A stretch of 20,000 nucleotides of DNA from NCBI GenBank assembly GCA_001724265.1, contig MEDY01000236.1, positions 61,407-81,406 of the forward strand, in the 5' to 3' direction. The stretch is from Rhizaria sp. SCN 62-66 (Eukaryota). The translations under genes were made by a program, and so were the position numbers. A model generated the notes under the pieces. It saw only the letters and a program-made list of their open reading frames with translations, made no database searches and was not told the DNA's origin. Shown here in pieces: positions 1 to 19,940 of this stretch. Every line of letters begins with the position of its first letter. The first letter of the stretch is position 1.

Positions 1-3000
1 GAGCTGCCGGCGCGGTACGGCGACGCTGAGGGCACGGGCGCCGTCGCGATCGCACTCGGCGCAGCGTATCCCGTCACTGGCGTGGGGTTGAAGTTGTTGT
101 AGTTCCCCGCGCCCGCGGTCGATAGCTGCGAGTCGTTGAGCGCGTCCAGGCTGCCGAACCCGCCGTAGCCCGCCGCGGCTGCAGCAGCGGGCGCGGGCGC
201 GGGCACAGCGCTGGCGGCCGGCGGCAGGGTCGCAGCGGGCGCCGTGGACGCGAAGGCCGAGTCCGAGTCCAGAAACGCCGGCTGGCGCTGCGGCCTCTCG
301 GCAGCCACTGCGGCGGCCTCGTCCTCGGCCCACCGCGCGGGCCCGTAGCTGCCGCTCGTGGCCGCGAAGCCGAACGCGGGGTGGCCCGCCGCGGCGCCGG
401 GGCCGAAGCTCGCGGCAAACGTGCTGTGCTGCTGCTGCTGCTGCTGCTACTGCGGTTGGCCGTAGGCAGTGGCGGCGGCGGGGCGCGCGGGGGAGGCGGC
501 GTGGGGTGTGCCGAGAGCGCGGGCGAGCTCGGCGCCGATGTCATCGTCGTCATCGTTCTTGTTGTTGCGCTTGCCGAAGCCGTGGCCGTGACTAGCGTGG
601 ACGTTGTTGAAGTCGCCGCTGTGGCTCGGCGTCGGCGGCTGGTACTGGAACTGCGTTTGTGACTGCTGCTGAGAGAGCTGGCCAGAGAGATGAGCGTTGG
701 CCTCGGCCGCAGCGTAGGCAGCGGCACGCCGCTCCATGGCGCCCGCCAGCCCGCCCGCCTTGGCGCTTGCACCGGCGGCGGGAGCGGGCTGGGCGGCGGC
801 AGGGGTGAACTGGCCGTAACCAATCTGGTGCTGCTGCTGCTGCGGCTGCTGCTGTTGAGGCCTCTGCTGCTGTTGCTGCTTGTTGGCAACGGGAGCGGCG
901 TCAAAGCTGTTAAATATGTCAGACGCGTCATTGTCCTCATCGCCAGCAACAAGAGGTGCAAGCATATGCTGCTGCTGCTGCAGCTGCGGTTGCTTGTGCG
1001 TGTTGGCAGCTGCAGGGCGCTCGTCCCAGTCGTCGAAGGGATCTGCCGTCTCCTCAGTCAAGTGACCGTGGGCAGGGTGATCGTGAGGCAGGCCGAACTG
1101 GTTGTTGTTGCTGTTGTTGCGCGCGTAGCCCGAGACCGTGGCTGTCGACGGCACGGGGCCCGGCGGCAGCAGTGGGGCGCCCACCAGGCCCAGACTGTCG
1201 TCATCACCATCAACGCCCTCGAACTCAGCCTTACCCTCGCGCTCGCGCTCGCGTCCGGGGTAGTTGTAATGATCGCTGTCGAAGTCATCGTCGTCGCGAC
1301 CGTGCGCACCGGTCACAGCCGGAGCCGCAGCAGCAGCAGTGGCAATGTTGGCGTTGGCGTTGGCCTTGGGGTCGTCGACGAGCACGGGCCCGTCCTGCAC
1401 CTCAGCGTCGTTGTCGCCGTAGTCGACGTCGCTCTCGCCCGCGCCGCGCGCGCCCCCCTCCTCCTCGTCGTCGTCAAGCCCGAAGGCGAAGTCGCCCGCG
1501 GCCGCGCCCGGCGGCGGCGGCACGTGCTACGCGACGTCGACGCCGGCGCCCGTCGCGCCCAGCGCAGCCGCCGGGGCCGGCGTCGGGGCCAGGGCCGTGG
1601 GCGGGAGCTCGGACGCAGGCGCAGACACAGGTTCGGGCTGTGCAGCAACAGGCGCAGGCCCAGGCTCAGGCACGGCAGTCGGCGCGGGCTCTTGCTGCTT
1701 CTCAGCACCGGCTGTGGCCGCATCCGCGTTGGGATACGCCGCGGGCACCCTTTCCTTGTTCACGTCACACAGATACTCCTGCTCCTCATCGTAGTCGTCG
1801 TCGTTCTCGACGCCTTCGGCCACGGTCGCGGAGACCTGCGCGCTAGGCGGCAGCGGCGGCGGCGGCAGCATCGCGCCCGCCGCGCGGTCGAAGATGGACA
1901 TCGTGCGCGTCTTTTGCTTTGGCACAAACGCCATCGCAGGCGCCGCAGCCGCACCAGCGCCAGCGCTGTAGCCATGGCCGTGTCCGTGTCCGTGAGCGTG
2001 GCCGGCGACAGTGACGGCCGGAGCGGGCGCGGGGGGAACGGAGAGGCCGCCGCCCGAGGCCGGAAGCGTGAGCGCAGACTTGGGCGGCAGCGGCGGCGGC
2101 ACGCGTGGCGGCGACACTGCACTGGCAGGCTCGCCAGCACCAGCGCCAGCAGCTGTCACAGCAGCGGGCAGGCCCGTCGCCGCCGGGGAGCTGACCGACA
2201 GGCGCGCGTGCAGCGGCGGCGGCGGCAGCGCGGCGTGCCGCGTGGGCAGCGGCACGTCCGCGCTGGGGCTTGGGGGCGCGGCTCCCAGTGAGCGGGCGCA
2301 TTGCCCCAACCCCAGCTCCAGCCCCTGTCCCTGTCCCTGTGCGAGCAGCGACGGCACGCCCTCGTCGTCTTCGCCCTCGGCGCCCGCGGGGCCGAACACG
2401 AGCTGGCCCGGCGCGGGCTGGGCGGGCGCGGCCGGCGCGGCGCCGCGGGCGGGCTTGACGGGCGCGGCGCGGGAGGAGGCCGCCGACGGGTGCAGCGGGG
2501 AAGAGCGCGAAAAGGCACGCTTGCCGGCGCGGTTGGGCGAGGTGCGGGCGCGCGCGTAGTAAATGCGACCGGTGCCGGCGATGAAGAACTTGCCCGTGCT
2601 AGAGGCTGCGGCAGGCGCACCGTCGCTGTGCTGCTGCTGCTGCTGCGCGAGAGAGAGCGCGGGCGGGGACGCGAGCGCGGCGACCCGCATCGCGACCGCC
2701 GGGTCGGTGGCGGCAGCGCCGGGCAGCGACGACGCCGACGATGACGCCGACGAAGACGCGGCGAGCGCGGCCTCGCGGATGCGGGCGCGCGTCAGCGGAC
2801 TGGACAGCGCGGCGCGCGGCGAGCAGAGCTCCGGCCCCGCGGCGTCGGTGCCCGGCCTCGCGGCCGTCAGCAGCGGCGACCGCAGCGAGCTGCCGCCGGT
2901 CGCCGGAGAGCGCGCGTTGGCGACCGGGCTGACGCAGTTCAGCGGGGCGGGCCGCCGCGCGTCGGCCTCGGCCCCCGGCGCCTCCGGGGACGTCACAACA

Positions 3001-3280
3001 ACCGTGGGCAGCGCCGGCGCGGACGCGGAGCCGGGCACCGCGGCGGCGCTGCTGTCCGCATTGCTCTCGCCGCTCGCGGCCTTAGTGTCCGCGGCGGGTG
3101 TGAGGTCGAAGGAGGACAGAACGGAGTCAAGCATGGCCGCGCTGACCGGCGCCAGCATCGCGCACACCGGCGCCGGGCCCTCCGGCACGCGCGGCCGCGG
3201 GCCGGACTGAGGGCTCGCGTGCGGTTGCGGCGAGGCAGCGGCGGCCGCAGCAACAGCTTCTTGATCAGGACGAGCTTGAG

Positions 3281-3312
<32 letters not shown>

Positions 3313-6300
3313 TGTTGCTGCTGCTGCTGCTGCTGCTGTTGACGCTCAACAAGAGAAGCAGCGGCGGGGAGCGCAGTGACGCTGCGCGCCGCGTTCCAGC
3401 GCGCGAGCTCGGCCACCAGGTCGGACGTGGCCCGCGCCGCCTCGGCCGCGGCCGCCTCGCCCGCTCTCGGTTCCGTCGGCCGCCGCACCGGCACTGGCGG
3501 CACCAGGGCCGCGCCGGGAGTCGCGGCAGCGTCGTACTGCTGCTGATGCTGCTGCACCTGCTGATCCTGTGTGAGCGGGGGCGGAACTCTGTAGGGTGAC
3601 GCGGCCGGGGGACCCGACTGGGAATACAGCGCCGCCGCCGCCGCGGCCATGACGGCGGCGTCCTGCGGCAGCACGTAGCCCGTTGCGGCCGGCTGCCCCG
3701 CGCGCGGACCCACCGAAGAGGGCATCAGCGGCGAGTTCCGCAGCAGCGCCACTCTGCCCTCGCCGCCGCGCGTCACTGCGGGCGCGGTGCCCGGAACGGT
3801 GCTCGCAGGGCAATGTGTGGCGGCGACCGAGGCGGGCAGCGGCGCCGTGACAAACGTGTCGCCCACCCACACGCCCACGGGCTTCGCGGCGCTCTGCGGC
3901 TGCGGCAGCTGCACACTCGCTGCTGCCTGCGCCGTCTGAGGCGCCGTTGCGGCGCTGCTGCGGGGCGGGACGGGCGGCGCGGCGGCGGGGCGCGGCGCGT
4001 TGCGACGCAGCTCCTCCAACCGCGCCTCAATCTCGTCGATGCGCGCGCGGTCGGCGTCGCGCAGCGCGGGCGCAGACGGCGTGCCCAGCGCGCCCGCGAA
4101 CGACTGCTGCCGCAGCGCCGGCGACGCCAGCGCGGCCGACAGCACGGCGGCCGCAGCGGCGGCGGACGCGGCCGCGAGCGCGGGGTCCGCGTGCTGCAGC
4201 TCCTGCTGGTATTGTTGCGAGGGCGGCGCAGCGCCGCGCGCGTACGGCGCGGCGGTCATCGCGTTTACGCTGCCGTTAAGGTCGTGCGCGTTCGCCCCGT
4301 TCACCGCGTTGTTGGCGTTGTTGCTGCTGCTCGGGAGCAAAGGGTCCTCGAAAACGAGACGAAACGCAGGCTCGGGGTCCGCGCCGGGCGCCTGCTGCGC
4401 GCGTTGCGGCTTCAGCGGCGTCGGCGCGCGGCCCAGCGCGGGCGGCAAGAACGCGGTCCCCGTCGCCACGTCGTGCGCCAGCGCGGCCGCCGCGGCGGGT
4501 ACCGGCACCGGCGGGGCGACGACCATAGCGGGCGCGGCAGCGGCAGCAGCAGCGGCGGCGGCAGCGGCGGCTGGAGGGGCCTGGGTCGAGAGCGAGGAGC
4601 CGCGGGGGCGCGTTGGCACCGCCGGCGGCGCCGCACCGGCAGCGGCAACGCCCCCCGGCGCGCTGGCCGCGGGAGCGAGGGCAGGCGGTGGCATGACAAC
4701 CTCCGTGGGCGTTTGGAACGTCGCGAAGTTAGGGCTGCCGCCCTGGCTCAGCGCGGCCGCGGGCGCTAAGGGGGCAGCGCCAGGCGCCGCGCCGGGTGCA
4801 GGCGCTTGTTTGCCCTGGCGCTCATCGGCGAGCTTGTCCTGATGTGCGCGCTGCTGCTGCAGCAGAACCTCGCGCTGCTGCGCGCTGTAGGCCACCTCCA
4901 CGGGTGCGGCGCCGGAGAAGGAGTACGCGTAACCGATGTTGCTGCGCTGCGCAGTGGCCACACCGCCCGGGACGTTGCTGCCGCCGCTGCCACTGCCATT
5001 GCCGAGACTGGCGCCCCCCGCGCCTGAGGCAGAGGCGGAGGGTAGCGCGCCCGAGGTGAGAGAGCGCGAGTCGACCCCGAAGGCCACCTCGCGCGCCTCG
5101 CCCCACTGCGCCGCCGCGCTTTGCACCAAGCCCGCGCCGCCGGGTCCGCTGCCGCTGCCGCTGCCGCTGCCGCCGTTGCTATCCGGGGCGCCGGCGGGGG
5201 ACAGGAGGCGCGCGTCGACCGCGGTCCCAGTCTGGAACCACGACGGCTGCGCTCCGGCCCCCGCGCGCGCGTCGGGGGCGCCGAACCCGCCAGTAGGCTG
5301 CCCCGGCTGCTGGTGCTGCGGCAGCGCCGCCGAAGGGTCCGAGCGGCCCGCCCACGCAGCGCTGGCCGCGGCAGCGTTGGCGGCGGCGCTGGGCGGAAGG
5401 CGCGGGTCCGCGGTCTGGCTGTGCACGAGCCCGCTGCCGCCCCAGGAGCCTGTCGCCGACGCCGAGGCCGCCGAGGCCAGGTCGGCCGGGTGCGGGCGCG
5501 CGGTCTCCCGCTCCAGCGGCTGCCCCGCGCCCACGCCCTCCTGGAACACCGCGCGCCCCTTGCCGTCCACTGTCGCCGCGGCGGGCGCAGCTGGCGCGCT
5601 GGGCGCGGGGCGGGAAGCGGGCCCCAGCGCGGCGGGCGAGGGCACTGCACCGGCGTAGCCGGCGTTGTAGCTGCTCAGCGGCGGTACGCCCACGCCCTCA
5701 GCGGCGAGTCCGCTCGCGGTGGTGGCCAGGTGGCCCGAGTGCGGCTGCAGGTACCCGTGGCCCGGCGCCGAGCCCTGCGCAAAGCCTGCCCGCGCAGACG
5801 GCCAGGGGTCTGCCGCCGCGCCAGTCACCGCGGCGGGCGCGGCTGGGCCGCTGGTGCCGCGCGCGGGGAGCTGCGGACCCAGCGCGGTTGCGGTCGCATG
5901 CGCGGCTGGGGGGGCACCGAGATTGGCAGTGGGGTCGGCAGCTGCCGAGACGGGGGCAGAATGGCCAGTGCCTGCCGAGTTGGGCCGGTGCTGCGGCCAC
6001 GCGCTGCCACCGGGGCCCGACACGGGCGCGGCCTCGGCGGTGGGGCCGTCGTCCGCAGCGTCCAAGGCCCACGCGCTCGCCCCGCGCGGCCGTGTCGCTG
6101 CGGCCGAATTAGCAGAGGAGCGGGGGGGCAGGCCGGGTTGGCCAGTGCGCAGAGCGCTGGCGAGGTCAGACTGCGACTGCGGGAACATCTGCTGCTGCTG
6201 CTGGTAGTTGTTATAGAGCACGCTCGCGTTTGAGTGGCTCTGTCCCCGCGTGTGCCCGCTGCCGTACCCGGCGGGACCCTGGGCCTGCGCCTGTGCCTGT

Positions 6301-9272
6301 CCATGTGCGGGCGTGCTGGGGTCCAGGTCGGGGTCCGACATCGCGGGCGTCGGCGGCGACTGCAGCAGCGGGTAGCCCAGCGCGCCAGCGCCAGTGGGCT
6401 TATTATTAGACTGTTGGTGCTAATGCTGCTGTTGGTTGGCCGCGGCGGCGGCGTAGGCGTGCACGCGCGAGGCCGTCGAGAACGCCGGCGACGCAGACGA
6501 CGGCGGCGGCAGCGCCCAGTAGCCCCCCGCCCCGTTGCCCGCCGCCGCGGCCACCGCAGCGGCTGGCGTTGCGGGCTGCGCTTGCGGCGCATGAGTGTGC
6601 TGCTGCTGCTGCTGCTGTGGCTGTTGTGGCTTCGCGGCACCCATGCCTCTATTGCCACCAAAGCTGTTGTGTGCGTTGCCCACGGGTCCGTGGCCATGTC
6701 CGTGGCCGTGGCCGGGGAGGACGATCTCGTGGAGCCCGTCGCCCGAGTCGTCTGGGTCCACCGTCACGGAGCGGTCGCCCGCGCTCGCGCTTGGGCCGCG
6801 CGCGAGCTCCGGGATGCCCTTAAGCGCGGCCGCCATCGCACTCGCTCTCGCGCCGCCTGGGCCGGCGCCGGGCTGCAGCCCGCCGCTGCTGCCATAGCCG
6901 GAGCCGCGGTAGTTGGCGGAGGACTGCGAGGGCAGCGGAGCGTTGAAGGCGACCACTGCGTCGGCGTCGCTGTCGCCAAATCGGTCAAAGTCGCCACTGT
7001 TGTGATGATAGCCGGCGCTGTTCTGCGCAAGCCGTGCATTGACGCCGCCTCCGCCGCCGCTGCTGCTGTTGCTGAGCGTGTAGCCGACGACGCCCGCCGA
7101 CGCGGGCCGCGCACGCACCGGCCCCGCCGCGGTGCCCATCGACGTCACCGTCGTCGCCACACTCTGCTGCTGCTGCTGCTGGCGGTGCGACTGCGAAGAG
7201 GGCACGTACGCAGCGCCTGCGCCGCCCGGCGCCGCACCCCAGGCGGGGAACTCGCGCATGTGCGGGGGCAGCGCGGGCGCGGCGGCGGCGTTGCGTGCGG
7301 CCGAATACGGCGCCGCGCCCCACGCCTCACTGCCCGCGGGGTCGAGCAGCAGCGGCGTCGCGCGCGTGTCTTGGTTTTCGCCCACGTAGCCCTGCGCCGC
7401 ACGGCGCATGTCAGGCCCGGCCGGGATTGCCGTCGCGGCCGCGGACGCAAACCACGGCTGCGCTGGCTGAGCAGCGGGCTGCGGCTGCTGGTACAGCGCG
7501 CTCGGCTGCGACGGCTGCGGCTGCTGCTGTTGCTGCTGTTGCTGTAGCGAGTGCGGGTGGTACTGCGGCTGGACCTGGTTCTGCGCGCTGCTGCTGTTGT
7601 GCGCGTTGCGGGGCGCCGAGGTGGCGGAGACGGCGTCGGCCCACGACACGAGCCCGTCGCCGTCGCCGATAGACGTCACTGTGGCCACCGCGTCGTGGTG
7701 ATGATACGCAGCACCCGTGCCGGTACCCGTGCCGGGACTCGTGCCACTCGCGGCGCCGTGGTTGACGTTGGCGCGCGCGGGCGCGGGGGGCGGTTTGCCA
7801 CTGGCACTCGCGGCGCTTGGGTTTGCAGTCGCAGTCGCGCTCGCGGGCGCAGCAGCAGCAGTCGCGACGGCAGGAGCTGCAGCATCTCTCGCCGAGTTGC
7901 TGCTGCCCGTGCTACTGCCGCTGGCGGCCATGGCCGGCGGCAGCGGCGCGACGTGCCCCGTCATGTTCAGCAGCGGCGGCGTGCGCGCGGCTCTGCCTCC
8001 GCCGCTGCTGGAGCTGCTGCGTGCGCTGCCCCCACTGCCGGGCCGCGCACCGCTGCTGCCGTTGCTGCTGGCGAGCGCGCGCTGGCCCTGGCCCGGCGAG
8101 GCCGCGTCGACGGGTTTGTCGGCCGGCCGCAGCGAGTACGGCGCCGGCTGCAGGAAGTGCGTGCGCAGCCAGCTCGACACAGACGTGGTGCTGTGCGCGA
8201 CGGGCACTTCGCCGGCGGAGGGCACTGCGGCCAAACGGGCCTGCGCCTCGGCGTTGCGCGCGCGCTCCATCTCGAGCTGGCGCGCGCGGGCCTCGGCCGC
8301 GCCGCGCTGGGCCTGCTAGAACGCCACCAGGGAGGGCGCGCGGATGTTTTGCACAGTCTGCGCAAAATATCAAGAATACAAGGGGGATAAGAACGTAAAC
8401 ATACAGAGAATACGTGAGAATACACCGGGTCCACGATGACATGAATTGCAAATCCATCCAGGGAAGCACAACGTACCTGCACATAGAACTGCGCGCGCGT
8501 GAGCGCGTCGACCCAGCCATTGGCGTCCTCCGCGGACTCGGCCCAGAGCACGAGCTCGCGGCCGCCCAGCGCGACGACCGAGGCCGCGCCGCCGGTCTGG
8601 CCCGACATGACGGAGCGCGCGTCGGCGGCCTCGTCGTCGCCGTCGCCGCCCGCGCCGCCCGCCGCGTGCGTGTGCGTGACGCGGATGCAGTGTGCCACAC
8701 CGCGGTACTCGTGCGGCGCCGACACCAACGCCACGGCCGAGAGCGGGATCGCGCGCGTGGGCGCGGCGCCGGGGTCGGGCGCCGCGAGCAGGGCCCAGTC
8801 TCCCGCAACCGTGGCCACAGTCCCGTTGCCCTGCGGGTGCGGCGGCGACGTCGCAGCGCGCGCGGCCGCTGCGGTGGAGTTGGCCTGCGAAGGCGCGCCG
8901 GCGCCAACGGGCGTGGGGACCTGGTACGAGTGCGGCAGCGCGGGCGCGTGCGCGGCCGCGGCGGCGGAGGGCGACGAGGCGTAGGCGAAGGGCTCTAGGC
9001 GGTAGTAGCGCTCGGTGTAAGGCTTGCCGAACAGGTAGGCGAGCTTGCCGGAGGCGGAAGTAGTTGATTTAAATTTCCGCAGCGAGCCGGCATACTGAGG
9101 GAAGGATATACAGATGGGGCTCAGAGCGTGAGAATGAGGGAGCGTGTCATATTGAAGAAAGGGAATGAGCCGGAGCCAAGGAGGTGCCGGCAAAGCGAAG
9201 GAGTCGATGGTTTGAAGGTGAAAAACGTACTAGCGGTGCGCCCTGAGGAGGGGGCATCGCCTGAGAAGCCAT
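1..9272 (-). CDS. Giant PH-domain protein with long intrinsically disordered Ala/Pro/Gln-rich region; join(9272-9231, 9094-8477, 8357-<1); 3'-partial; needs TAG read as a sense codon at 8316-8318, 6420-6422, 1527-1529 and 447-449
   Basis: ATG at 9272 gives MASQAMPPPQGAPL, spliced in phase 0 to YAGSLRKFK...AQFYVQ, then spliced in phase 0 to TVQNIRAPSLVAF*QAQ.... The ORF-track pieces 6420..8270, 1527..6341 and 447..1523 are all in one frame, separated only by single TAG codons. The frame stays open from 446 to base 1 (hand-translated) with the same codon style. Confidence 0.85.
3282..3341 (-). repeat. Coding (CAG/CAA)20 poly-glutamine tract
   Basis: Plus strand ctg/ttg run of 60 nt; translates as ER-Q20-PQ. 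Shorter poly-Q tracts occur near 429-449, 830-885, 6600 and 7520-7545. Confidence 0.95.
8358..8476 (-). other. Intron 2 of PH gene (119 bp, phase 0)
   Basis: Minus strand CAG|GTACGT...ttttgcgCAG; an AT-rich island between two GC-rich exons; removal puts the PH exon in frame with the 8.3-kb exon. Confidence 0.85.
8477..9094 (-). other. Exon 2, encoding a pleckstrin-homology (PH) domain with low-complexity loop insertions
   Basis: PH-like elements appear in order: PL|YAGSLRK (beta1), KPYTERYYRL (beta2), PTRAIPLSAV, HCIRV, and the typical C-terminal ELVLWAESAEDANGWVDAL strand-helix with the conserved Trp. Recognised by eye; no HMM was run. Confidence 0.8.
9095..9230 (-). other. Intron 1 of PH gene (136 bp, phase 0)
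   Basis: Minus strand GTACGT...ccttccctCAG; pyrimidine-rich; removal joins GAPL to YAGSLRK. Confidence 0.8.
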
Positions 9273-10227
9273 TGGCCGGTGCACAACACAGGTGAGTCAA
9301 CTTGAAGCGAGGAGAGTGGGCCAGCCTTTGAAAGCGGGCATGACGATAGGCGAAGAAAGTTAGGTGCGGATTGATGGCGATAAATTATCGAGCAAGAGTC
9401 ATATTTAAAATATATACATCTAAACAAATACGCGGCTTTGATGACAGAGTTAAACTCCCAATTGACGATGAGAATATTGGTTAAATGTGAGCTAAAGAGA
9501 AGCTACTCAGCCCTGACACAATCGAGCCGTTGCAGCCCTCACAAGCTCTTGTTTGACCTGAATAGAAGACGTTGTGAGAGGAGATATCGGTATAATTACA
9601 AAATCATTGCAGATTCACAAGGAAGAAACTTATTCAACTTTATTTTTAGTGACCGTATCTTGATATGCGCATTCTATCGAGCTACATCCACCATAAGCGG
9701 ATGATCATCGACACCACGACTGCTACTCGGACAAGGCGAGGAGGAGAAAGCAATGGCAGAAACAACATCACAACATTGGTAAACACCCAGGCAAAACGCT
9801 GGCATTACAGGGCGTTGTTATAATCGAATAAAAGGCACCCGTTGAGCATAATGCATAAACAACAAACAAAGATACGTAACTAGACACAGGAAAAAGGAAA
9901 AACAGTCACTATCAAGACGATACTTCTGAAAAAAATATGATTCGGAACACAGGAAAGCATTGCAAAATTGATTATTTTGCGATTTCTTTCATTCTCTTGA
10001 CAAGAAAACTGAACAAATGAGGGATAATTGTGATCAGGTTAGGCTGATCAACAGATGACAAGAAAACATATCTTGCGACAAAACATGGTGAATCTTGCAC
10101 CAAAAGTCACATAAAACAAATATGGTATGCAACATCAGCCAGTCTGATATCACATTACAGCGCAGAAAAATACCAACTGAATTAAATTTCGCACAATTCC
10201 TTTCCTGTTTTGTTGCAAACCAACGGT

Positions 10228-12131
10228 TTAGAGCTTCTTGGAGGTCAGCGCCTTGTTCGTCAGCTCACTGGCTTTGTTACCAAGTGTTTCACCCGATTCA
10301 TTCTCCGCATATCCCTTGGCCGAGTTGGCAAGCATGTCCGTGCTGACCTTATTGACAATCTTGCCCGCCTTCGTCGTCACAGAGGCAACCTTGGCTGCGG
10401 TCGCAGCGAGGTCCTTGAGCGCCTTAGACTTATACGCGTCTGCCTTGACCTTGCCGTCCGACTTTAGCATCGCCTGGTACTTGACCTCAATGGCCTTGGC
10501 GCCGACGCTGCTCGTAACCTTGCCCGTGACAGTGCCCACCTTGGTCGCAACCTTGTCGAGACCAGCGCGAGTCTTCTCAGCCACCCAGTCAGCGGTTACA
10601 GTCGCAGCCGCCCCCGCAGAGCCCGCGACCACAGTCTTGACCGTCTTCGCAGCAATGCTCTTGGCAGTTGAGGCAAGAGTCTTGGTGCCGAGAGCCTTAA
10701 GAGCGTCGAGACCAGCGCCTTGGGCACCGTCAGACAGCGCGTCCACCATGCCATCGATAGCTCCGGAGGTCACCTTGCTGTTGAGGTGTGTGACAGAGTT
10801 CAGGGCGTCGAACACCATACGCTCCGTCAGCGCAGTCTTGAGCTTACCCGCGATGATGGCCTTGTGGTATTCAATCTTCTCGGCATTGGTCATTTTCTTC
10901 ACCTTCTCGAGCTCGGCAGCGGCAGCGGCGGCGGCAGCGGCGTCGTCGGCGGCCTTCTTGACGTCGTACGCCTTTTGCTCCTGCGCGGAGGACCAAGCGC
11001 ACTGGCCAACAGTGGTGGGGCAAATTTGGCCGAGCGCAATGACGCGCTTGGTGCTCTTGAACAGGGACAGACCGGCGACCTTGAAGTCGGTGGCCGGGAT
11101 GGTGAACGACGGGATGGAGAAACTGCAGAGGCAGTCGGGGGTGACGCGGAGCTTCTTCTGGAGCAGAGCCATGCCCTGGCGGCACCAGGTCGTGAAGAGC
11201 GAGCTGAGATAGAGCGGGAAGCCGCAGAAAAACTTGCTGGCGATGGCGCCGAGACCGCCGGTCATAGCGCTGACGAGCAGGCCACACACCGCATTGCCAA
11301 ACGCCGTGCACGCAGAGCGGACAATGTAGTTGGCCACAGTCTTGCACCACGTGCACTTGTAGTCCTTAATCTTGGCGACGACCCAGTCGAACGCCTGGCC
11401 GATCTGCTCGCCGACGCCGTACATAACAGCATCCTGAACCAAGAGCGTGTGCAGCGTGCTGCGCGACTGGAACAGGTGCGCGTTCTGGTGCAGCGCAGCC
11501 ACAGCGACGCGGGCTTCAACAAAGGCAGCAGCGCCCTTGGGGGAGCGGCGCTCGCGGAGGGAGACCTCGGCGTCGACCTTGCGCAGCAGCGAGTCGAACG
11601 AGATCTTGTTGACCTGGACGGGGATGTCAACGCTCGCGGCGAGGTCAAGCAGGGAGGAGCGGTGCTGCTCAAAGAGCGCACTGTAGTCGTCAAGCTCCAT
11701 GTGCATGTGCGTACGAGCAATGTTTTGGCGCCAAGCTTGAAAGCCCTCCTTGTTAGCAGTCAGCGCGGCGAACACGGCCTTGTCTTGCTCGCTCTTCATG
11801 TCGAAGGGTACAGCAAGGAAGTCGTCCTGAGTGAGAGTGTCACGGGCGTTGTCGATGAAGCTTGCAACGTCGGAGGCCATAGAGGCACCAGGAGCCATCA
11901 GCGCCATCGCAGCGGTCTCATTAGACCGCATGTGAAGCACGTCGACAGACACCGCGACTCTGTGTGGGATGAATGGTGATGGGGAAGGGGGGCGAGGAAA
12001 ATGGGGTGAGCAAAAAGCGTGTATGGCGTAAGTGATAAGAAGAAAAAAGCACTCAGGTCCATTATATAAACGTACGTTTGAGTCACTGCAACAAGCAGTA
12101 GACCCAACAGGGCAGCGCATACGACACGCAT
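10228..12131 (-). CDS. Paralogue 1: putative secreted prepro-protein with 10-Cys saposin-like domain and basic K/A/T-rich tail, ~595 aa; join(12131-12076, 11959-10228)
   Basis: Exon 1 is MRVVCAALLGLLLVAVTQ(T), signal-peptide-like, followed by a phase-2 GTACGT..CAG intron. Exon 2 is homologous to the three neighbouring genes. Ends in TAA. The ORF-track N-terminus (MLVCDAC...) is translated upstream and intron sequence. Confidence 0.85.
11960..12075 (-). other. Intron 1 of paralogue 1 (116 bp, phase 2)
   Basis: GTACGT donor, ...cccacaCAG acceptor; same position (after 56 coding nt) as in paralogues 2 and 3. Confidence 0.85.
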
Positions 12132-12776
12132 CGCACACTAGCAAAAGGGATGGTTAACGAGAGGAGAAAAAAATTAATTTGTGGCAAAATTCGCATCCAG
12201 TTTTTCGGAACAAAGAGCATCTTGTTGAAGCATTCTCTACAAAAACATTATGATATCCGCACATCACGAAGAAAATAAACATGTGCACACATTTCTGGCG
12301 GTAATGGGATATACAAAATTTTCAATTTCATCTGCAGATACAAGGGATAAGAGAGAGAAACCAAAGGCATCACGTGTATTTTTTTAATCGACGACACAGA
12401 AGTGCAAAAACAACCAACAGAAGTCGGATAAGAAGAACCATAGCGCAGCTCTTTGTGCTTTCTGTCATCACCTCACACGTCTGTCTATCAGCGTCACACG
12501 CAGTGAAGAGCGATATGAGACGCACCCACCACAGGCCGTCAGAGGAATGTTGTGCACGACTGGGGGAGGCGGCGGGTGTGCAAATGTAAATGTACATGTA
12601 CATGTACAAGTTTAAGTGCGAGTGTGTGGCGCAGGCAGACATGACAAGCATGTTATCGACTCCATGCGCAGCACTACACGCGATGAGAACAGCAGATATT
12701 TCTGCACGCATATGAGTAAAAAGATCACGTAAATACACCACATATCACAGTGATTGTGCTGTTGCACACCGATTGC

Positions 12777-14637
12777 TTAGAACTTGACAGGGGCCAGCTT
12801 CGACTTGTCCGCGGTCGCGGTGGCGGTCTTGTTTGCAGTCTTGATCGGGGTCGTGGTCTTCTTAGTAGTCGACGCAGTGGTCTTGGAAGCGGTCTTAGAA
12901 GCAGTAGTAGCAGACTTGGAAGCAGCGGTGGCAGTCTTGGAGGTGGCAGTGGGCTTAGCAGCCGCAACGGGCGCCTTGGACGCGACCATGGGCATGTTGG
13001 CGTTGGCCTTGCCGGCAACCTTGGTGATAGAGGCGGCGACGGTGGGGAAGCTCTCGAAGTCGGTGATCTGCGACGGGCGCGCCGGCGTGGGGGCCTCGAC
13101 AGGCTTGCTAACCTCCTTCTCCTTGCCCCGGAAGGCGTCGAAGATGCGACGGAAGAAGGCGGACACGGTGGAGATGATGCCATCCTGCGGGGTGAGCTTG
13201 GTGATCTTGTTGAGCTCCTTGTTAACCTGCGTGCTCGACAGCGTCGTGGTGACGGTGCCGTTGAGGATCTGCGAGTGGTACGCGATCTTCTCCGCCTTGC
13301 TCATCTCGCGGATCGCCGCAATCTCGATCTCAGCGCGGCGCGCAAGGTCGGCCTGCATGGCGTCGTACTCAGCCTTAGCCGCGTCGGTGTCGAGGATGCA
13401 CTGGCCGCTCGCGACAGCGCACACGGTCCCGACGGGGACCTCGGCCGAGGCGACGGTCATGACGGGCTCGCCGGGCGCGGCCTGGACCTCAGCCTTGGGC
13501 AGCGTGAGCGAGGGCACGTTGAAAGAGCAGATACACTCGGGGGTGAGCTTGATGCGGGTCTGGATGTGGGACACGGCCTTGTAGCACCAGTTGCCGAAGA
13601 GCTTGTTGAGGTAGATGGGGAAGCCGCAGAAGAACTTGGCGGCGATGAAGCTGGTGACGCCGGTGAAGGCGGTGACGATGGCCGTGCAGATGTAGGTGCC
13701 GGCAAGGTCGCAGCTGGACTTAAGGATCTGTACGACGGCCTTCTGGCAGAGCTCGCACTTCTTCTCCTTGATGAGGTCGACGACCCAGTCGTAGGCCCTC
13801 TTGAGGTTGTTGATCAGGCCGAAGGTGATGGCGTCCTGCACCACGAGCGCGTGCAGCGTAGTGCGCGACTGGAAGAGGTGCTTGTTCTGGTGCAGCGCGG
13901 CAACGGTGACGCGGGCCTCGACGAACGCGGCGGCGCCCTTGGGGGAGCGGCGCTCGCGGAGGGAAACCTCGGCGTCGACCTTGCTGAGGAGGGCGTCGAA
14001 CGAGATGGCGTTGACCTTGGCGGGAATGTTCATCTCGGCAGCAAGGTCAAGCAGGGACGCGCGGTGCTGCTCAAAAAGGGGCTCGAAGTCCGAGAGCTCC
14101 ATGTGCATCGACGCACGAGCCATGTTCTGGCGCCACGCGTTGAAGGCCTCCTTGTTCTCCGTGAGGGCGTTAAAGACCTGGGCGTCCTGCTCGTTCTTCA
14201 TGTCGAAGTCGACAGCGAGGAAGTCGTTCTGGTTCAGAGAGCGCTGCGACTGCTCGAGGAACGCCTGAACACCCTCGATCGACTCAGACGAGTGGGGAGC
14301 GAGGATGGCCAGAGCCGCAGTCGAGTTCGACATGCGGCCCGCGGCGAGCGAGACCGCAGCACTGCAAGATAGAAGGGTGGAAAGTGAATGATGGGAACAA
14401 AAAAAAGACAAGACAGCAAAATAAGGCGGGAAAACGCAACATATCAACCCCGTGGCAATAGTGCATGAGATGCGTGCGAGGTCTGCATACAAAAAGAAGT
14501 TAGGCAAGAGAGTCGCGTCGGAGTAACCGAGCGAGCATGTTGTGCGTATCGCACGGGAAGCATTTGACAAGTTGTACGTACACCTGGGACACCATGGCCA
14601 TAAACAAGCCAAGGAAAACAGCGCAAAGGACACGCAT
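12777..14637 (-). CDS. Paralogue 2 (most divergent Cys domain and tail), ~546 aa; join(14637-14582, 14361-12777)
   Basis: Exon 1 is MRVLCAVFLGLFMAMVSQ(V), 56 nt. Contains the conserved HMELxDF..LFEQHR.SLLDLAA and KVDAEVSLRERRSPKGAAAFVEAR blocks and all 10 Cys. Ends in TAA. Confidence 0.85.
14362..14581 (-). other. Intron 1 of paralogue 2 (220 bp, phase 2)
   Basis: GTACGT donor, ...tatcttgCAG acceptor; homologous position. Confidence 0.8.
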
Positions 14638-15861
14638 GTTACCACTAGAGCGACAAGAAGGTTCAAGAGGCAGATTAGTGTGGCGTGAGCTTCGACCGTC
14701 GCGTCTGTTGGGGCGCTTACTAAAGCGATACCCCAGGGCCATAGTCAAATTAATAGAAGCATTGTCGAAGAAAAAGCAAAATTTCACCAAGGAATGCTGC
14801 AGAGAAAATACGAGCAACTGAAATTGACGAGCCAGAGAGGCACTACACGTGTTACAAAATTCCCGGCGACGCTGCTTGTAAAAGTCGTCGATCGACGACT
14901 GTATGTGCGAGCCAGTGACATTTTTTCGGAACAGCAACTTGAATAGACCGAAGTTTGTAATAAAAATGGGTGTACCCTAGTGAAAATATAATATAATTTA
15001 GATTTGACAGCACAATTAATCTGCATCCTAACGTGTCTATGTTATGCACCTATTCACATCCCAATTTTCAACGGGATGGGGTTGCTGTGCCGTGCTACGT
15101 CGCAAGCCAATTGTGTTCAACTCAGCTGAAAAGGTCCCTCAGATCCCATGAGTGGACGACCACGGAAATTACTTTTGTGGAAAACAAAGTACGTAAACGA
15201 AGATGTATTCAGGTACGATAGTTTTATAAGTCAGCGAACAAGGAAGGCTTGTCCTGGCTTGTGGAGAGAGGCACGTTCTCCGCGCAATTTTGAAGAATGC
15301 AGCACTCAAGTCTGCAAGAAAAAGATAAAACAAGACAGGAAGATTGCAGCACCGATATGATAGCACCGTTTGTGATTGCGTGCTCAAGGGCTGCGGGGGC
15401 AGCAGGGACAAGATAAGTTCGGAGGTGAGAGCAGTAGGACCAAACAGGCAAAATTAAGAGGAAAATCAGTTCAAGTACTTCAGCAGATGGAGTACACGTC
15501 GTGCAACACGATCCAGCAAAAACAGGAGGTCGACATCGACATCTTGTAGTATATAAAAATGATGATGATACAAAACAGCAACAGCAGACGTGGTGATGTA
15601 GGTGTCTGCAAGAGGTGCGTGAGATGCCTTGTAACGGCATAACTATTTACGCACCACGCAAACACACAAACAAACACAGACAACAAACCCGCTCAACAGC
15701 TGGCGCACAACTCACCAGCGTGAAAACACGACGTGGTAGTAGGGGTGTATATGCGGGCATCGCGATGATAAAATACACAAACAGAAACAATCACAGACAA
15801 AGAAACATAGGAATCACAGAAAGAGAAAACACACACGGTCACACGGTCACCACTCTTGGCT

Positions 15862-17943
15862 TTACTTGCCGTTGAGCTTTGAGTCAACCTTGTTGACAAC
15901 ATTTTTGGTCACCTTTTCGGCCACAGCGCCGTTGATTGCGTTCTTGGTCATATCGGATGCCACCGAGCCTGCCGCGCTGATGACCTTCTTCGTGGCCGTC
16001 TTCGTCGCGTTGGCTACCTTGTTGACGGTCTTGGTCGCGGACTTCTTGTAGGATGCTGCAGCAGCAGTGCCCTTTGTCTTCTTGATCACTGCAGTCTTGG
16101 CGTTGACGACTGCAGTGCCGACCTTCTTAACGGTCTTAGACGTGGCTGTCGCCGCCTTAGTGGCAACCTTGTCCGCCTTCTTCTTGACCTCCTTGGCAAC
16201 GTATGTTGCCCCCGTGGCCGTCACCGCGCCGATTGCGGACTTGGTCACCATTTTGGCAGCTCCAACAGCGGCCTTCTTGACGACAGCCTTGGCGCCGTCC
16301 TTGAGCGCGGTGCCCGCGGCCGCCTTGACGGCGCCCTTGATCCCTTCGCCCGACGCCAGCGCCTTGACGCCAGAGACGACAGACTTGCCGGCGGTCTTGC
16401 CAAGGCCAGTCACTGCAGTTAACACCTCGGTGACCATGCGCTGCGTCATCGCAGTCTTGATTTCGCCCTTGATGATCTTGGTGTGGTACGCGATCTTTTG
16501 CGCCTTGGTCATTTTCTTGACGCGCGCGAGCTCAGCCTCCGCAGCTGCTGCAGCAGCCGTGTCTTCCTTGGCCTTTTCAGCAGCGTATGTTTTCTTCTGA
16601 GCGGCTGTGGAGCCAATGCACTGGCCTGTCTTGGTAGGGCACACCTGGCCCAGCGCGATAGTGCGCGCCTTGTTCTGGTACACAACCGCGCCAAGAACCT
16701 CGAACTTGTGTGCCTTAATGGAGAAGGTGGGAATAGTGAAACTGCAGATGCAGTCGTTCGTGAGGCCAGCCTTGTTTTGAATCCAAGCCACGCCTTGGTT
16801 GCACCAGCCGGTGAATAGTGAGCTGAGATACACAGGGAAACCGCAAAGGAACTTGCCGGCGATGGTACCGATCGGGCCGCCCATGGCGCTGGCGAGCAGA
16901 TTGCACTACGATAGGATCGAGTGAGTTTGGAACAAAAAATAGTGAAAATGAGATATAGCACGCAGCGGAAAGATGTGAGTATGACTAAGAAATCAATCGA
17001 CACGAGTTGAATTTAACGTTAAAACAGTCATTTGACACATAAGAACGATCAAAGAAAACGTACGATAGCCTTTCCTGCAGCCTTGCATGCGTTTTTGAGA
17101 ATGTGGCTGACAATGTTCTTGCACCACGTGCACTTATACTTGGCAACATTCTTAATTACCCAATCAAATGCCTGCCCAATTTGAGTGCCAACACCGAACA
17201 TCACAGCATGCTGCACAAGCAGCGAGTGCAGCGTCGATTGCGATTGGAACAGGTGCGCGTTCTGGTGCAGAGTTGAGACAGTGACGCGGGCCTCGACAAA
17301 CGCCGCAGCACCCTTAGGGGAGCGGCGTTCGCGGAGAGAAACTTCAACATCAACCTTGCGGAGGAGCGCCTCGAACGAGATGGCGTTAACTTGAACAGGG
17401 ATGTCGACGCTGGCAGCGAGGTCAAGCAGCGAAGCGCGGTGGTGTTCGTGCAGGGCGCTGTAGTCACTGAGCTCCATGTGCATGCCGGTGCGGGCCATGT
17501 TCTCGCGCCAGGCCTAAAATCCGGACTTGTCGTGGGTCAACGCCTCAAACACGGCCTTATCTTGGTTGTTATTCATGTCAAACGGTGCGGCGAGGTAGTC
17601 TTGCAGGGAGAGGCGGTCCCCAACGTCTTCGATGTACGCCGCGATTTCGGCCAGACTGGCGGCGTTGCTGGGCTCCAACAGATTCAGGGCCGCAGTCTCA
17701 TTTGTTAAAGAAGACCGGTGGAGTGCCATGTTGACGGCAGAGCTGTGGACACAGGGTATTGTAGCAATATGAGTTCAGATGTGGGAATGGTCAGACGGGA
17801 GCAGAGAGGACGAAATGCATTTCGCGTGGCACCGGATGATCGCAAACGAACGTAAAAAGCGGCTTTGGGCTAGATGAGAAGACGTACGTTAAAACGACAA
17901 ATGCCGCTAGAACGAAAGCAAGCGTCGCCCTGAATGCACGCAT
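15862..17943 (-). CDS. Paralogue 3, ~592 aa; join(17943-17888, 17742-17064, 16905-15862); one in-frame TAG at 17514-17516
   Basis: Exon 1 is MRAFRATLAFVLAAFVVL(T), 56 nt. ORF pieces 17514..17729 and 17049..17498 are in frame across a TAG. The second intron joins GKAI|CNLLASAMGGP, matching GNAVCGLLVSAMTGG in paralogue 1. Ends in TAA. Confidence 0.85.
16906..17063 (-). other. Intron 2 of paralogue 3 (158 bp, phase 0), absent from the other three paralogues
   Basis: ATC|GTACGT...ctatcgTAG|TGC; AT-rich; removal restores a gapless alignment to the paralogues. Confidence 0.9.
17743..17887 (-). other. Intron 1 of paralogue 3 (145 bp, phase 2)
   Basis: GTACGT donor, ...gtgtccaCAG acceptor; homologous position. 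Confidence 0.8.
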
Positions 17944-18758: not shown

Positions 18759-19940
18759 TTACTTGGCACAAGTGCCGGCCTTGGGGATGCAAATCTGGCC
18801 CAGCGCAACAGAGCGCGCCTTGTTGCGATACACAACTTTGCCGAAGACGGTGAACTCGTGCGCCTTGAACGTGAACGTGGGGACGGTGAAGCTGCACACG
18901 CAGTTGTCTGTGACCTTGGTGGCGCGCTGGATCCACTCGACGCCCTTGACACACCACCCGGCGAACACAGAGTCAAGGTGCACGGGAAAGCCGCAGAAGA
19001 ACTTGTCGGCGATGAGCCCCAGCGGACCCGTCATGGCGTCGACGAGCAGGGTGCAGATCTTCTTGCCGGCGAAATCGCACATCTTCTCGCGGATCGACTT
19101 GACGATAGACTGGCACCACTGGCACTTGTACGTGTTTACCTTGCCCATCACCCAGTCGATCGCCTTGCCGATCTGCGCGCCGAGCCCGAACTGGATGGCG
19201 TCCTGCGCGATGAGCGGGTGCAGCGTCGTGCGCGAGTTGAACAGGTACGCGTGCTCATACAACCCGCTCACAAGCGCGCGCGCATCGACCGCAGCGGCAA
19301 CACCCTTGGGCGCGCGGCGCTCGCGAAGCGATACCTCGGCGTCAACCTTGCGCAGCAGCGCGTCGAAGGAGACCTGGTGGACCTGGACGGTGATGCCGAG
19401 CGAGGCCGCGAGGTCGAGCAGGGAGGAGCGGTGCTGCTCGAAGAGTGCGCTGTACTCGGCCAGCTCCATGTGCATCTCGGCGCGCGCAATATCCTCGCGC
19501 CAGGCGGTAAAGGCATCCTTATTCTCAGTCAGCGCATCGAAGATGGCGCGGTCCGACGCGTTGTTGTCGATGTCGAAGGCGACAGCGAGGTAGTCGTTGT
19601 GAGTGAGGCTCGCGGTCGTCTCGTCAAGGTAGGCCACCACCTCGGCGAGTCCAGCGTCGCTGCTGCTGGGGTTCAGCAAAGCAAGCGCGGCCGTTTCATT
19701 GGTCATCGCGGCCTGCGCGGACGCCATGAGTGAGGCGTTGCTGTCCATACAGGGACACGGTCGGCATGCGAGAGACGAGAGAGGTGGGTGAGAACATGAT
19801 GAGAATGAGGCAAGGCAGGGCTCCAGGAACTGGATCAACTGGCTTTGGATGTAAAAAAGAACGGTTGAACAGGTTTTAAGACGTACGTCAGCATGGCAAG
19901 TTGTCACAACCGACATTCTGCATAAAATACCAACTCTCAT
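18759..19940 (-). CDS. Paralogue 4: pro-like domain plus 10-Cys domain only, with no tail; main exon 19740-18759; first exon and start uncertain
   Basis: The main exon is intact and homologous, with all 10 Cys; TAA comes two codons after the last Cys (CAK*). Upstream is a GTACGT..CAG intron-like segment (19886-19741), but the MRV... exon is 54 rather than 56 nt, so it is out of phase. Confidence 0.7.
   Translation of the reverse strand: MRVGILCRMSVVTTCHADVRLKTCSTVLFYIQSQLIQFLEPCLASFSSCSHPPLSSLACRPCPCMDSNASLMASAQAAMTNETAALALLNPSSSDAGLAEVVAYLDETTASLTHNDYLAVAFDIDNNASDRAIFDALTENKDAFTAWREDIARAEMHMELAEYSALFEQHRSSLLDLAASLGITVQVHQVSFDALLRKVDAEVSLRERRAPKGVAAAVDARALVSGLYEHAYLFNSRTTLHPLIAQDAIQFGLGAQIGKAIDWVMGKVNTYKCQWCQSIVKSIREKMCDFAGKKICTLLVDAMTGPLGLIADKFFCGFPVHLDSVFAGWCVKGVEWIQRATKVTDNCVCSFTVPTFTFKAHEFTVFGKVVYRNKARSVALGQICIPKAGTCAK
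19741..19886 (-). other. Probable intron 1 of paralogue 4 (146 bp)
   Basis: AC|GTACGT donor, pyrimidine-rich 3' half and gaCAG|C acceptor, at the same position relative to NETAA as in the paralogues. Confidence 0.6.

What the first reader, a model, noticed from the sequence alone, without database searches (positions are those of the whole stretch)
447..17516. Non-standard nuclear genetic code: TAG read as Gln while TAA remains stop
Seen: five in-frame TAG codons in two unrelated, otherwise intact genes: 447-449 (GQPQ*QQQQQQH), 1527-1529 (DVA*HVPPP), 6420-6422 (ANQQQH*HQQS), 8316-8318 (VAF*QAQR) and 17514-17516 (KSGF*AWRE). There is no in-frame TAA or TGA in roughly 5000 codons, and all four gene ends seen are TAA followed by AT-rich non-coding sequence. 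Established: nuclear UAA and UAG are almost always reassigned together (ciliate code, NCBI table 6). Uncoupled cases are rare: UAG=Gln with UAA=stop corresponds to table 15 and was reported in the fornicate Iotanema spirale, and UAG=Leu was reported in a rhizarian and some ciliates. Inference: this GC-rich, intron-containing genome uses UAG=Gln with UAA stop and may be an unreported lineage for this code.
Basis: partly seen in the sequence, partly recalled or inferred. Interest (0 to 1): 0.95.

Follow-up and report, generated by a model that had tools for sequence, protein, structure and literature searches.

The report
Likely TAG-as-glutamine code, uncultured eukaryote
Two intact, transcribed genes of an uncultured GC-rich wastewater eukaryote carry five in-frame TAG codons while genes end in TAA, which most likely means that this organism reads TAG as glutamine, a rare genetic-code variant, though tRNA and genome-wide proof is still missing.

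Summary
All five TAGs lie in frame on the minus strand at the stated coordinates. The window's coding frames hold 4958 codons with 5 TAG, 0 TAA and 0 TGA.

Four of the five TAGs are letter-identical in contigs from runs of other studies and years. One is also present in a cDNA-library contig. No CAG variant was listed at any site.

Both genes look alive:
- The giant gene keeps its frame and high GC3 through about 2900 codons after its first TAG.
- The family gene splices in frame, keeps the family's conserved residues and has the shortest branch of ten paralogs.
- A polyA RNA run covers the genes but hardly any spacer.

The family gene's TAG aligns with Gln in 10 of 15 homologs. Of 12 gene ends, 10 are TAA, 2 TGA and none TAG.

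Best reading, confidence 0.65: TAG is a sense codon for Gln, about 2% of Gln codons, and TAA and TGA are stops.

What stays open:
- No genome, tRNA(CUA), eRF1 or conserved gene could be reached.
- "All stops are TAG" is weak evidence, because about 75% of possible nonsense mutations in this CAG-rich gene would give TAG.
- The organism was not identified. One related contig carries IFT43.
- This code is already known from Iotanema and two ciliates.

The parts
9231..9272 (-). Giant gene, putative exon 1 (ATG at 9272, 14 codons, MASQAMPPPQGAPL)
   Evidence: the ATG and its translation, followed directly by GTACGT. Donor at 9230. The model is inferred and no spliced RNA confirms it.
9095..9230 (-). 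Intron 1 of the giant gene (GTACGT...CAG, 136 nt)
   Evidence: Joining across it is in frame with the PH-like exon. Inferred from the sequence.
8477..9094 (-). Giant gene exon 2, 206 codons, weak PH-domain match
   Evidence: PF00169, E 0.0027, 18.7 bits, below the 25.1-bit cut-off. Translation.
8358..8476 (-). Intron 2 of the giant gene (GTACGT...GCGCAG, 119 nt, GC 0.44)
   Evidence: Joins ...AQFYVQ | TVQNIR... in frame.
1..8357 (-). Giant gene exon 3: 2785 codons within the window, low-complexity Ala/Gln/Pro-rich, running off the window's left end. Protein P0018 shows 131 more codons beyond it.
   Evidence: GC3 0.76-0.92 in all 12 blocks of 250 codons. (P0018 identical at 101 of 102 residues to the window's last 102 codons).
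8316..8318 (-). In-frame TAG 1 (VAF-TAG-QAQR), 13 codons after the intron 2 acceptor
   Evidence: Identical in X4 contig record 10 (8044-10903, 0 differences) and in L001.
6420..6422 (-). In-frame TAG 2 (QQQH-TAG-HQQS)
   Evidence: X4 record 9 (5882-7948, 0 differences).
1527..1529 (-). In-frame TAG 3 (DVA-TAG-HVPPPP)
   Evidence: X4 record 8 (1056-2902, 0 differences).
447..449 (-). In-frame TAG 4, interrupting a CAG run (CAG TAG CAG x6)
   Evidence: No listed contig piece covers it (X2 was cut at the repeat 419-460), so only the window itself shows it.
10228..11907 (-). Family gene 1 (P0002, 559 aa), stop TAA
12777..14312 (-). Family gene 2 (P0014), stop TAA
15862..17732 (-). Family gene 3: exon 17732-17064, intron 17063-16906 (GTACGT...TAG, 158 nt), exon 16905-15862, stop TAA. 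The spliced CDS has 570 codons and a single in-frame stop.
   Evidence: Shortest terminal branch of 10 paralogs.
17514..17516 (-). In-frame TAG 5 (KSGF-TAG-AWRE), at a family column that is Gln in 10 of 15 homologs
   Evidence: X2 record 6 (16466-18544) and X6 record 23 (17373-17742), both 0 differences.
18759..19700 (-). Family gene 4 (P0015), stop TAA, truncated relative to its paralogs (lacks the C-terminal half)

Best explanation
The window is nuclear DNA of an uncultured, GC-rich, intron-poor eukaryote found in bioreactor and wastewater metagenomes. Its translation system most likely reads UAG as a sense codon, glutamine, at low usage: about 2% of Gln codons (5 of 277 in the window). UAA is the main terminator and UGA a minor one. 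That is an NCBI table 15-type code. The mechanism is expected to be a tRNA-Gln with anticodon CUA, which pairs with UAG but not UAA, together with an eRF1 that recognises UAG poorly. Shown here: the in-frame TAGs, the integrity, conservation and transcription of the genes that carry them, the Gln alignment at one site, and TAA and TGA as gene ends. Inferred, not shown: translation of UAG, the tRNA and the release-factor change.
For: (1) The coding frames hold 5 TAG, 0 TAA and 0 TGA in 4958 codons. The five non-coding frames of the giant gene carry 11-55 stops each.
(2) The TAGs are not assembly errors. Contigs from a 2017 run of another study (X4) cover 1527, 6420 and 8316 with 0 differences. 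A 2025 run (X2) and X6 cover 17514 with 0 differences. No alternative letter was listed at any of the five codons in four runs. L001, a separate public metagenome contig that may come from the same sample, matches window 8049-15084 with 0 mismatches in 7036 bases.
(3) The genes behave as live genes. After the first TAG (codon 14 of exon 3) the giant ORF stays open for 2771 more codons in the window plus 131 beyond it (P0018). GC3 is 0.76-0.92 in all 12 blocks, and there is no frameshift and no TGA or TAA. Gene 3 splices in frame to 570 codons with the TAG as its only stop. It departs from the other nine paralogs at 2 of 57 columns where they all agree; the range among paralogs is 0-11. It has the shortest terminal branch of the ten, 0.278 against 0.31-1.09.
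(4) Transcription. The polyA RNA run X7 gave contigs with 0-1 differences on the giant gene on both sides of TAG 6420 (5305-6031 and 6526-6804) and on gene 3 downstream of its TAG (17177-17463). Its depth was 0-0.7 in the mainly intergenic bins, where DNA runs X2 and X4 keep depth 4-8. X6 is recorded as RNA-Seq cDNA and shows the same gene-only pattern. Its contig carries the TAG at 17514-17516 unchanged.
(5) Amino acid. The TAG column of gene 3 is Q in 10 of 15 homologs; the others are L, K, R, N and T. Two further TAGs sit inside Gln runs (PQ-TAG-QQQQQQ and QQQH-TAG-HQQ).
(6) Terminators. Of 12 gene ends, 10 are TAA, 2 TGA and 0 TAG. These are four in the window, six family genes in related contigs and two other genes there. 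This is despite GC3 of 0.72-0.95.
(7) Splicing does not remove the TAGs. GC within 60 nt of the TAGs is 0.56-0.83, against 0.36-0.52 in the three introns.
Against: Only five codons in two genes support it, and both genes are lineage-specific: no named homolog was found. No conserved gene could be examined. No tRNA gene lies in the window or in the six related contigs, and no genome is held, so tRNA-Gln(CUA) and eRF1 are untested. Codon identity is weak evidence: about 75% of single-base nonsense paths in the giant gene lead to TAG (412 of 563), so four random nonsense hits would all be TAG roughly one time in three. The six family genes in related contigs have 0 TAG among 105 Gln codons. Zero TAG among 12 gene ends is only mildly unlikely if TAG were a normal, minor stop. 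No listed RNA contig from the polyA run spans a TAG. The TAG at 447-449 was not covered by any listed independent contig.
Confidence: 0.65

Rival explanations
1. Standard code with recent CAG>TAG (C>T) nonsense mutations. The giant gene and family gene 3 would be young pseudogenes or null alleles fixed in a clonal population.
For: CAG is by far the largest nonsense target in the giant gene: 176 CAG codons, and 193 of 240 transition paths to a stop give TAG. TAG aligned to Gln is therefore expected under this reading too. Multigene families often hold pseudogenes. Both genes are orphans, whose loss might be tolerated. All runs examined carry essentially one identical sequence, so a recent clonal sweep is possible.
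Against: It needs four separate nonsense hits in one gene without any frameshift, TGA or TAA in about 2900 downstream codons, and with unchanged GC3. Gene 3 is the slowest-evolving of ten paralogs and keeps the family's conserved residues and an in-frame intron. Both genes are represented in polyA RNA. Two of five genes in one 20-kb window would have to be hit, each by TAG only.
Confidence: 0.15
2. Standard code with leaky termination. UAG would be read through by near-cognate tRNA-Gln(CUG) in a favourable context, without a dedicated suppressor tRNA.
For: The base after the TAG is C in 4 of 5 cases (TAG-CAG twice, TAG-CAC twice). C at first codon positions is 0.31 overall in the giant gene. 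From general knowledge, a C after the stop is the leakiest context and Gln is a usual readthrough insertion.
Against: Full-length giant protein would need four successive readthrough events, so ordinary efficiencies of a few percent would give almost no product. The excess of C is also expected simply from neighbouring Gln and His codons. One TAG is followed by G. TAG never ends any of the 12 genes seen.
Confidence: 0.12
3. UAG is a sense codon for an amino acid other than Gln, or has a context-dependent dual meaning (sense inside genes, stop at gene ends).
For: Only one site has a homolog alignment, and 5 of 15 homologs there are not Gln (L, K, R, N, T). UAG=Leu codes exist (PMC5304391 and PMC11687900, abstracts). 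Twelve gene ends are too few to exclude occasional UAG termination.
Against: Three of five sites have a direct Gln context. A single C>T change links TAG to CAG.
Confidence: 0.05
4. Artefact: assembly or sequencing errors, RNA editing back to CAG, or TAGs lying in unrecognised introns.
For: The TAG at 8316-8318 could serve as an alternative, in-frame 3' splice site (TTCTAG|CAG) 42 nt beyond the modelled acceptor. The TAG at 447-449 lies in a CAG repeat that one assembly could not cross.
Against: Four of five TAGs are identical in contigs of other runs. A contig from a library recorded as cDNA keeps the TAG at 17514-17516. The flanks of the TAGs are GC-rich like exons (0.56-0.83), unlike the introns (0.36-0.52). 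The first AG after the intron's TTCTCAC motif is the modelled acceptor at 8358.
Confidence: 0.03

Closest known systems
Iotanema spirale (Fornicata) nuclear code: UAG=Gln, UAA the primary stop (Panek et al. 2017, PMC5304391; abstract and passages read)
   Same: UAG is decoupled from UAA, with Gln as the inferred meaning and UAA as the main terminator. It is a non-ciliate flagellate. A tRNA-Gln(CUA) was predicted rather than shown there as well.
   Different: That case rests on transcriptome-wide codon analyses; here only five codons are available. This DNA has very GC-rich exons (GC3 0.72-0.95). The organism is unplaced, so relatedness to Iotanema is neither shown nor excluded.
Hartmannula sinica and Trochilia petrani (phyllopharyngean ciliates): UAG=Gln, UAA the preferred stop (McGowan et al. 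2024, PMC11687900; abstract and sections 4 and 10 read)
   Same: The same code variant. UAA strongly dominates gene ends there (for example 91.9% in H. sinica) with UGA minor. Here the split is 10 TAA to 2 TGA among 12 ends.
   Different: There UAG makes up 18.5-31.8% of Gln codons and 78-84% of genes contain one. Here it is about 2% of Gln codons and 2 of 5 window genes. Tandem genes on a contig of at least 47 kb, 75% GC exons and 119-158-nt GTACGT introns do not look like a ciliate macronucleus; that judgement is from recall.
UAR=Gln codes (NCBI table 6 type: Tetrahymena, hexamitin diplomonads, oxymonads, some ulvophytes, Amoeboaphelidium; listed in PMC5304391 Background and PMC11687900 Introduction)
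   Same: Stop-to-Gln reassignment involving UAG.
   Different: In those codes UAA is also Gln and UGA is the only stop. Here UAA ends 10 of 12 genes and never occurs in frame in 4958 codons.
UAG=Leu codes (rhizarian exLh, PMC5304391; three TARA phyllopharyngean MAGs, PMC11687900)
   Same: UAG alone is reassigned and UAA is kept as stop.
   Different: The contexts here point to Gln: 10 of 15 homologs have Q and only 1 has L.
Context-dependent codes (Condylostoma, karyorelicts, Blastocrithidia; named in PMC11687900 Introduction and PMC12153298 abstract)
   Same: A stop codon that is translated inside genes.
   Different: In those codes the reassigned codons also terminate. Here no gene end uses TAG (0 of 12), but the sample is too small to exclude a dual meaning.

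Membership tests
Table 15-type nuclear code (UAG=Gln; UAA and UGA stop) | In-frame UAG in intact, expressed protein-coding genes | tested here: met
   Five TAGs in two genes. Frame, GC3, splice frame and family conservation are all kept. PolyA RNA contigs lie on both genes. Only two genes could be examined.
Table 15-type nuclear code (UAG=Gln; UAA and UGA stop) | UAG positions align with Gln in homologs | tested here: inconclusive
   At the one alignable site 10 of 15 homologs have Q. Two further sites lie inside Gln runs. The giant protein has no homolog to align.
Table 15-type nuclear code (UAG=Gln; UAA and UGA stop) | UAG is not used as a terminator | tested here: inconclusive
   0 of 12 gene ends are TAG. 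The sample is small, and 8 of the 12 come from related contigs that may belong to other species.
Table 15-type nuclear code (UAG=Gln; UAA and UGA stop) | UAA is retained as a terminator | tested here: met
   10 of 12 gene ends are TAA. For full-length family members they lie at the family's C-terminal end. GC falls after 8 of the 10; L004 and the second L005 gene show no drop.
Table 15-type nuclear code (UAG=Gln; UAA and UGA stop) | A tRNA-Gln gene with anticodon CUA | not testable with these tools
   No tRNA genes in the window or in six related contigs. No genome is held.
Table 15-type nuclear code (UAG=Gln; UAA and UGA stop) | eRF1 altered in its stop-codon recognition motifs | not testable with these tools
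   No eRF1 sequence of this organism could be reached.
Table 6-type code (UAA and UAG = Gln, UGA the sole stop) | In-frame UAA used as a sense codon, and genes ending only in UGA | tested here: not met
   0 in-frame TAA in 4958 codons, and 10 of 12 genes end in TAA.
Pseudogene (standard code) | Frameshifts, mixed stop types, loss of conserved residues, accelerated evolution, no transcript | tested here: not met
   No frameshift and no TGA or TAA. Gene 3 deviates at 2 of 57 conserved columns and has the shortest branch. RNA contigs are present. Very recent inactivation is not excluded.

The most novel reading that the evidence does not exclude
An unplaced, GC-rich, intron-poor eukaryote of engineered water systems, probably a flagellate and probably not a ciliate, has reassigned UAG to Gln on its own while keeping UAA and UGA as stops. 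UAG still makes up only about 2% of Gln codons. That would be a further independent origin of the decoupled UAG/UAA code, in a very GC-rich genome, and possibly an early stage of codon capture.
Probability: 0.5. Interest if true: 0.8.

Novelty: new member of a known kind. Interest (0 to 1): 0.62.

Why it matters
Codes in which UAG and UAA have different meanings are rare. The papers read here give two non-ciliate lineages (Iotanema, UAG=Gln; the rhizarian exLh, UAG=Leu) and several phyllopharyngean ciliates. Each new independent origin tests whether the usual coupling of UAA and UAG is a mechanistic rule.

A case in a genome with 75-95% GC at third codon positions and very low UAG usage would bear on how reassignment starts. 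The two models are loss of the codon followed by capture, and an ambiguous intermediate stage.

There is also a practical point. Gene callers using the standard code split this organism's genes. The public protein collection already holds the giant gene as fragments, for example P0018. Metagenome annotation of this lineage is therefore wrong wherever a TAG occurs.

Tried and rejected
**More sequence of the organism**
- The whole genome is not held.
- There are no earlier scan notes for this genome, this sequence or these words.
- The metagenome scan with the family alignment gave 8 short contigs. Two of them (L001, L007) are pieces of the window.
- Scans of genome contigs and viral contigs with the family found no relative.
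- The high-copy repeat at the window's right end had no exact match in genome contigs, viral contigs or the held loci.

**Homologs of the giant protein**
- The word-indexed search over residues 1-2789 found none, among candidates of 1533-4881 aa only.
- The full HMMER search with the last 1200 residues found 3 proteins. One is P0018, the organism's own C-terminal ORF piece. The other two are weak hits (E 6e-5 and 1e-4) on the poly-Gln stretch.

**Split family members**
- The 'shorter' search looked only at proteins of 30-123 aa and found none. It says nothing either way.

**Taxonomic placement**
- The Atlas gave only sub-threshold hits for the family and animal IFT43 clusters for the L002 gene.
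- Rfam found nothing in the window or in six loci.
- A literature search on GTACGT donor sites gave no lineage.

**Limits of the read laying**
- None of the listed pieces covers TAG 447-449.
- None of the listed X7 pieces spans any TAG.
- None of the 15 listed joints corresponds to the modelled introns; 204 joints were not shown. Splicing is therefore unconfirmed by RNA.

**Readings rejected**
- Chance open frame in GC-rich DNA: the other frames hold 11-55 stops.
- Several separate genes within the giant ORF: there are no AT-rich spacers and GC3 is uniform.
- RIP-like C>T decay: the giant gene is 74% GC. No dinucleotide index was computed.
- A kinetoplastid polycistron: the genes have canonical GT..AG introns.

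Full report
**What is there**

The window is eukaryotic nuclear DNA. Exons are very GC-rich (0.56-0.79) and spacers and introns are AT-rich (0.43-0.47). All recognisable genes lie on the minus strand.

The left 9.3 kb is one giant gene:
- A putative 14-codon first exon, with its ATG at 9272.
- A 136-nt intron.
- A 206-codon exon with a weak PH-domain match (PF00169, E 0.0027, below the curated cut-off).
- A 119-nt intron.
- A third exon of 2785 codons that runs off the window. It is low-complexity and rich in Ala, Gln and Pro.

Protein P0018, found in a public collection, is identical at 101 of 102 residues to the window's last 102 codons. It continues for 131 more residues, so the gene ends about 0.4 kb beyond the window.

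The right half holds four tandem members of an unnamed Cys-rich protein family. The third member has an internal 158-nt intron. All three introns modelled inside coding sequence start with GTACGT. The same hexamer also lies 150-270 nt upstream of each family ORF.

**The observation**

All five TAGs are in frame at the stated coordinates and show the quoted peptide contexts.
- The giant frame has 4 TAG, 0 TAA and 0 TGA in 2789 codons.
- The other five frames of the same DNA carry 11, 24, 35, 45 and 55 stops, mostly TGA. The open frame is therefore not a by-product of GC richness.
- Over all coding frames modelled in the window there are 5 TAG and no other stop in 4958 codons.
- The four gene ends in the window are TAA, each followed by a drop in GC.

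**Not an artefact**

The stretch occurs in bioreactor, wastewater and activated-sludge runs from several studies, 2015-2025. I laid four runs on the whole window.
- Contigs of X4 (2017) cover the TAGs at 1527, 6420 and 8316 with no difference.
- X2 (2025) and X6 cover 17514 with no difference.
- No alternative letter was listed at any of the five codons.
- The TAG at 447-449 sits in a CAG repeat, and no listed piece covers it.
- A separate public metagenome contig (L001), possibly from the same sample, is identical to window 8049-15084.

The TAGs do not lie in introns. Their flanks have exon-like GC (0.56-0.83 within 60 nt), against 0.36-0.52 for the three introns. Only the TAG at 8316-8318 could double as an alternative in-frame acceptor. 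The first AG after the intron's TTCTCAC motif is the modelled acceptor at 8358.

**Live genes or pseudogenes**

The giant gene has 176 CAG codons. In it, 193 of 240 transition paths and 219 of 323 transversion paths to a stop give TAG. Four random nonsense hits would therefore all be TAG about one time in three. A TAG aligned with Gln is likewise expected for a CAG>TAG mutation.

What speaks against decay is everything else.
- The first TAG is codon 14 of exon 3. If it terminated translation, about 2900 downstream codons would be untranslated. Yet they contain no frameshift and no TGA or TAA. GC3 stays at 0.76-0.92 in every block of 250 codons.
- Family gene 3 splices in frame to 570 codons, and its only stop is the TAG.
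- Gene 3 departs from its nine paralogs at 2 of 57 columns where they all agree. The range among paralogs is 0-11.
- Gene 3 has the shortest terminal branch of the ten, 0.278 against 0.31-1.09.
- The polyA RNA run X7 gave contigs with 0-1 differences on the giant gene on both sides of TAG 6420, and on gene 3 downstream of its TAG.
- X7 has depth 0-0.7 in the mainly intergenic bins, where DNA runs keep depth 4-8. That argues for transcripts rather than DNA carry-over.
- X6 is recorded as RNA-Seq cDNA, although the tool guesses DNA. It shows the same gene-only pattern, and its contig carries the TAG at 17514-17516 unchanged. That argues against editing back to CAG.

**Which amino acid, and which stops**
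- The TAG of gene 3 falls in a column that is Q in 10 of 15 homologs; the others are L, K, R, N and T.
- Two giant-gene TAGs interrupt Gln runs.
- In the window TAG is 5 of 277 Gln-type codons, about 2%. Gene 3, the family member with the lowest GC3 (0.72) and the most CAA, is the one that carries it.
- Of 12 gene ends, 10 are TAA, 2 TGA and 0 TAG. These are four in the window, six family genes on related contigs, and two other genes there.
- UAA is therefore clearly a terminator, which excludes a table 6-type code. UGA appears to be a minor stop.

**What could not be done**
- No genome is held.
- No tRNA gene lies in the window or the related contigs.
- No conserved gene of this organism was reachable.
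- The giant protein has no homolog.
- The family occurs only in unnamed metagenome proteins.
- Further scans for more contigs failed.
- The organism was not placed. The only hint is an IFT43 gene on a related contig (L002; PF15305, E 3.7e-12), which suggests a flagellated lineage.
- Supplementary files of the papers were not consulted.

**Comparison with what is known**

UAG=Gln with UAA as the main stop is documented for Iotanema spirale (PMC5304391, abstract and passages). It is also documented for the ciliates Hartmannula sinica and Trochilia petrani (PMC11687900, abstract and sections 4 and 10).
- In those ciliates UAG makes up 18.5-31.8% of Gln codons and UAA ends about 87-92% of genes.
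- UAG=Leu variants exist in a rhizarian and in TARA phyllopharyngean MAGs (same papers).
- The pattern here matches the Gln variant in kind, but with far lower UAG usage and in a very GC-rich genome.
- That this variant corresponds to NCBI table 15 is recalled, not taken from a call.

**Verdict**

Rivals and their rough weights:
- Recent nonsense mutations under the standard code: 0.15.
- Efficient readthrough without a dedicated tRNA: 0.12. Four of the five TAGs are followed by C.
- Another amino acid, or a dual sense/stop meaning: 0.05.
- Artefact: 0.03.

If true, it is a new member of a known, rare kind of code. It is worth following up on the organism's full assembly.

Noticed in passing
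window 19910-20000 (runs off the right end): A high-copy element. Summed contig depth there is about 1300-1900 in DNA runs X2 and X4, against 5-8 for the rest of the window. The window's copy differs from the majority at 19934, 19940 and 19955. X4 record 15 ends at 19930 and X2 has a loose end at 19910. A 25-mer from it had no exact match in genome contigs, viral contigs or the held loci.
   Followed up: partly
window 10228-19740, minus strand; loci L002-L006, L008: An unnamed tandem gene family. It has a conserved N-terminal half of about 300 residues with about 10 invariant or near-invariant Cys, then a coiled, Lys/Ala/Thr-rich low-complexity tail. There are no Pfam hits. It is known only from metagenome proteins (15 hits, none with a functional name). 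Some members have signal-peptide-like N-termini.
   Followed up: partly
window 19886, 17887, 14581, 12075 (minus strand): GTACGT lies 150-270 nt upstream of each of the four family ORFs. These are candidate 5' introns with tiny first exons; before 19886 the sequence reads ATGCTGAC|GTACGT. All three introns modelled inside coding sequence also start with GTACGT and contain a CTCAC motif near the 3' end. No RNA joint confirms them.
   Followed up: no
window 11497-11530: One contig of the polyA RNA run X7 differs from the window at 10 positions in 34 nt, nine of them spaced by multiples of three. It looks like a transcribed paralog, or the same gene in a close relative, diverged at synonymous sites.
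   Followed up: no
window 18759-18761: Family gene 4 ends at a TAA right after ...GTCAK, where its paralogs continue for about 250 more residues. No similarity follows the stop, and GC drops to 0.47. It is a truncated family member.
   Followed up: partly
L002 2539-3234, minus strand: An IFT43 (intraflagellar transport) gene sits next to a family member on a related contig and ends in TGA. It suggests that the lineage builds cilia or flagella.
   Followed up: partly
window 3-2000, minus strand (C-terminal part of the giant protein): Short acidic motifs such as DPFDDW and DIFNSFD lie in a disordered tail behind a PH-like domain. From recall they resemble adaptor-binding motifs of endocytic proteins. 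This was not tested.
   Followed up: no
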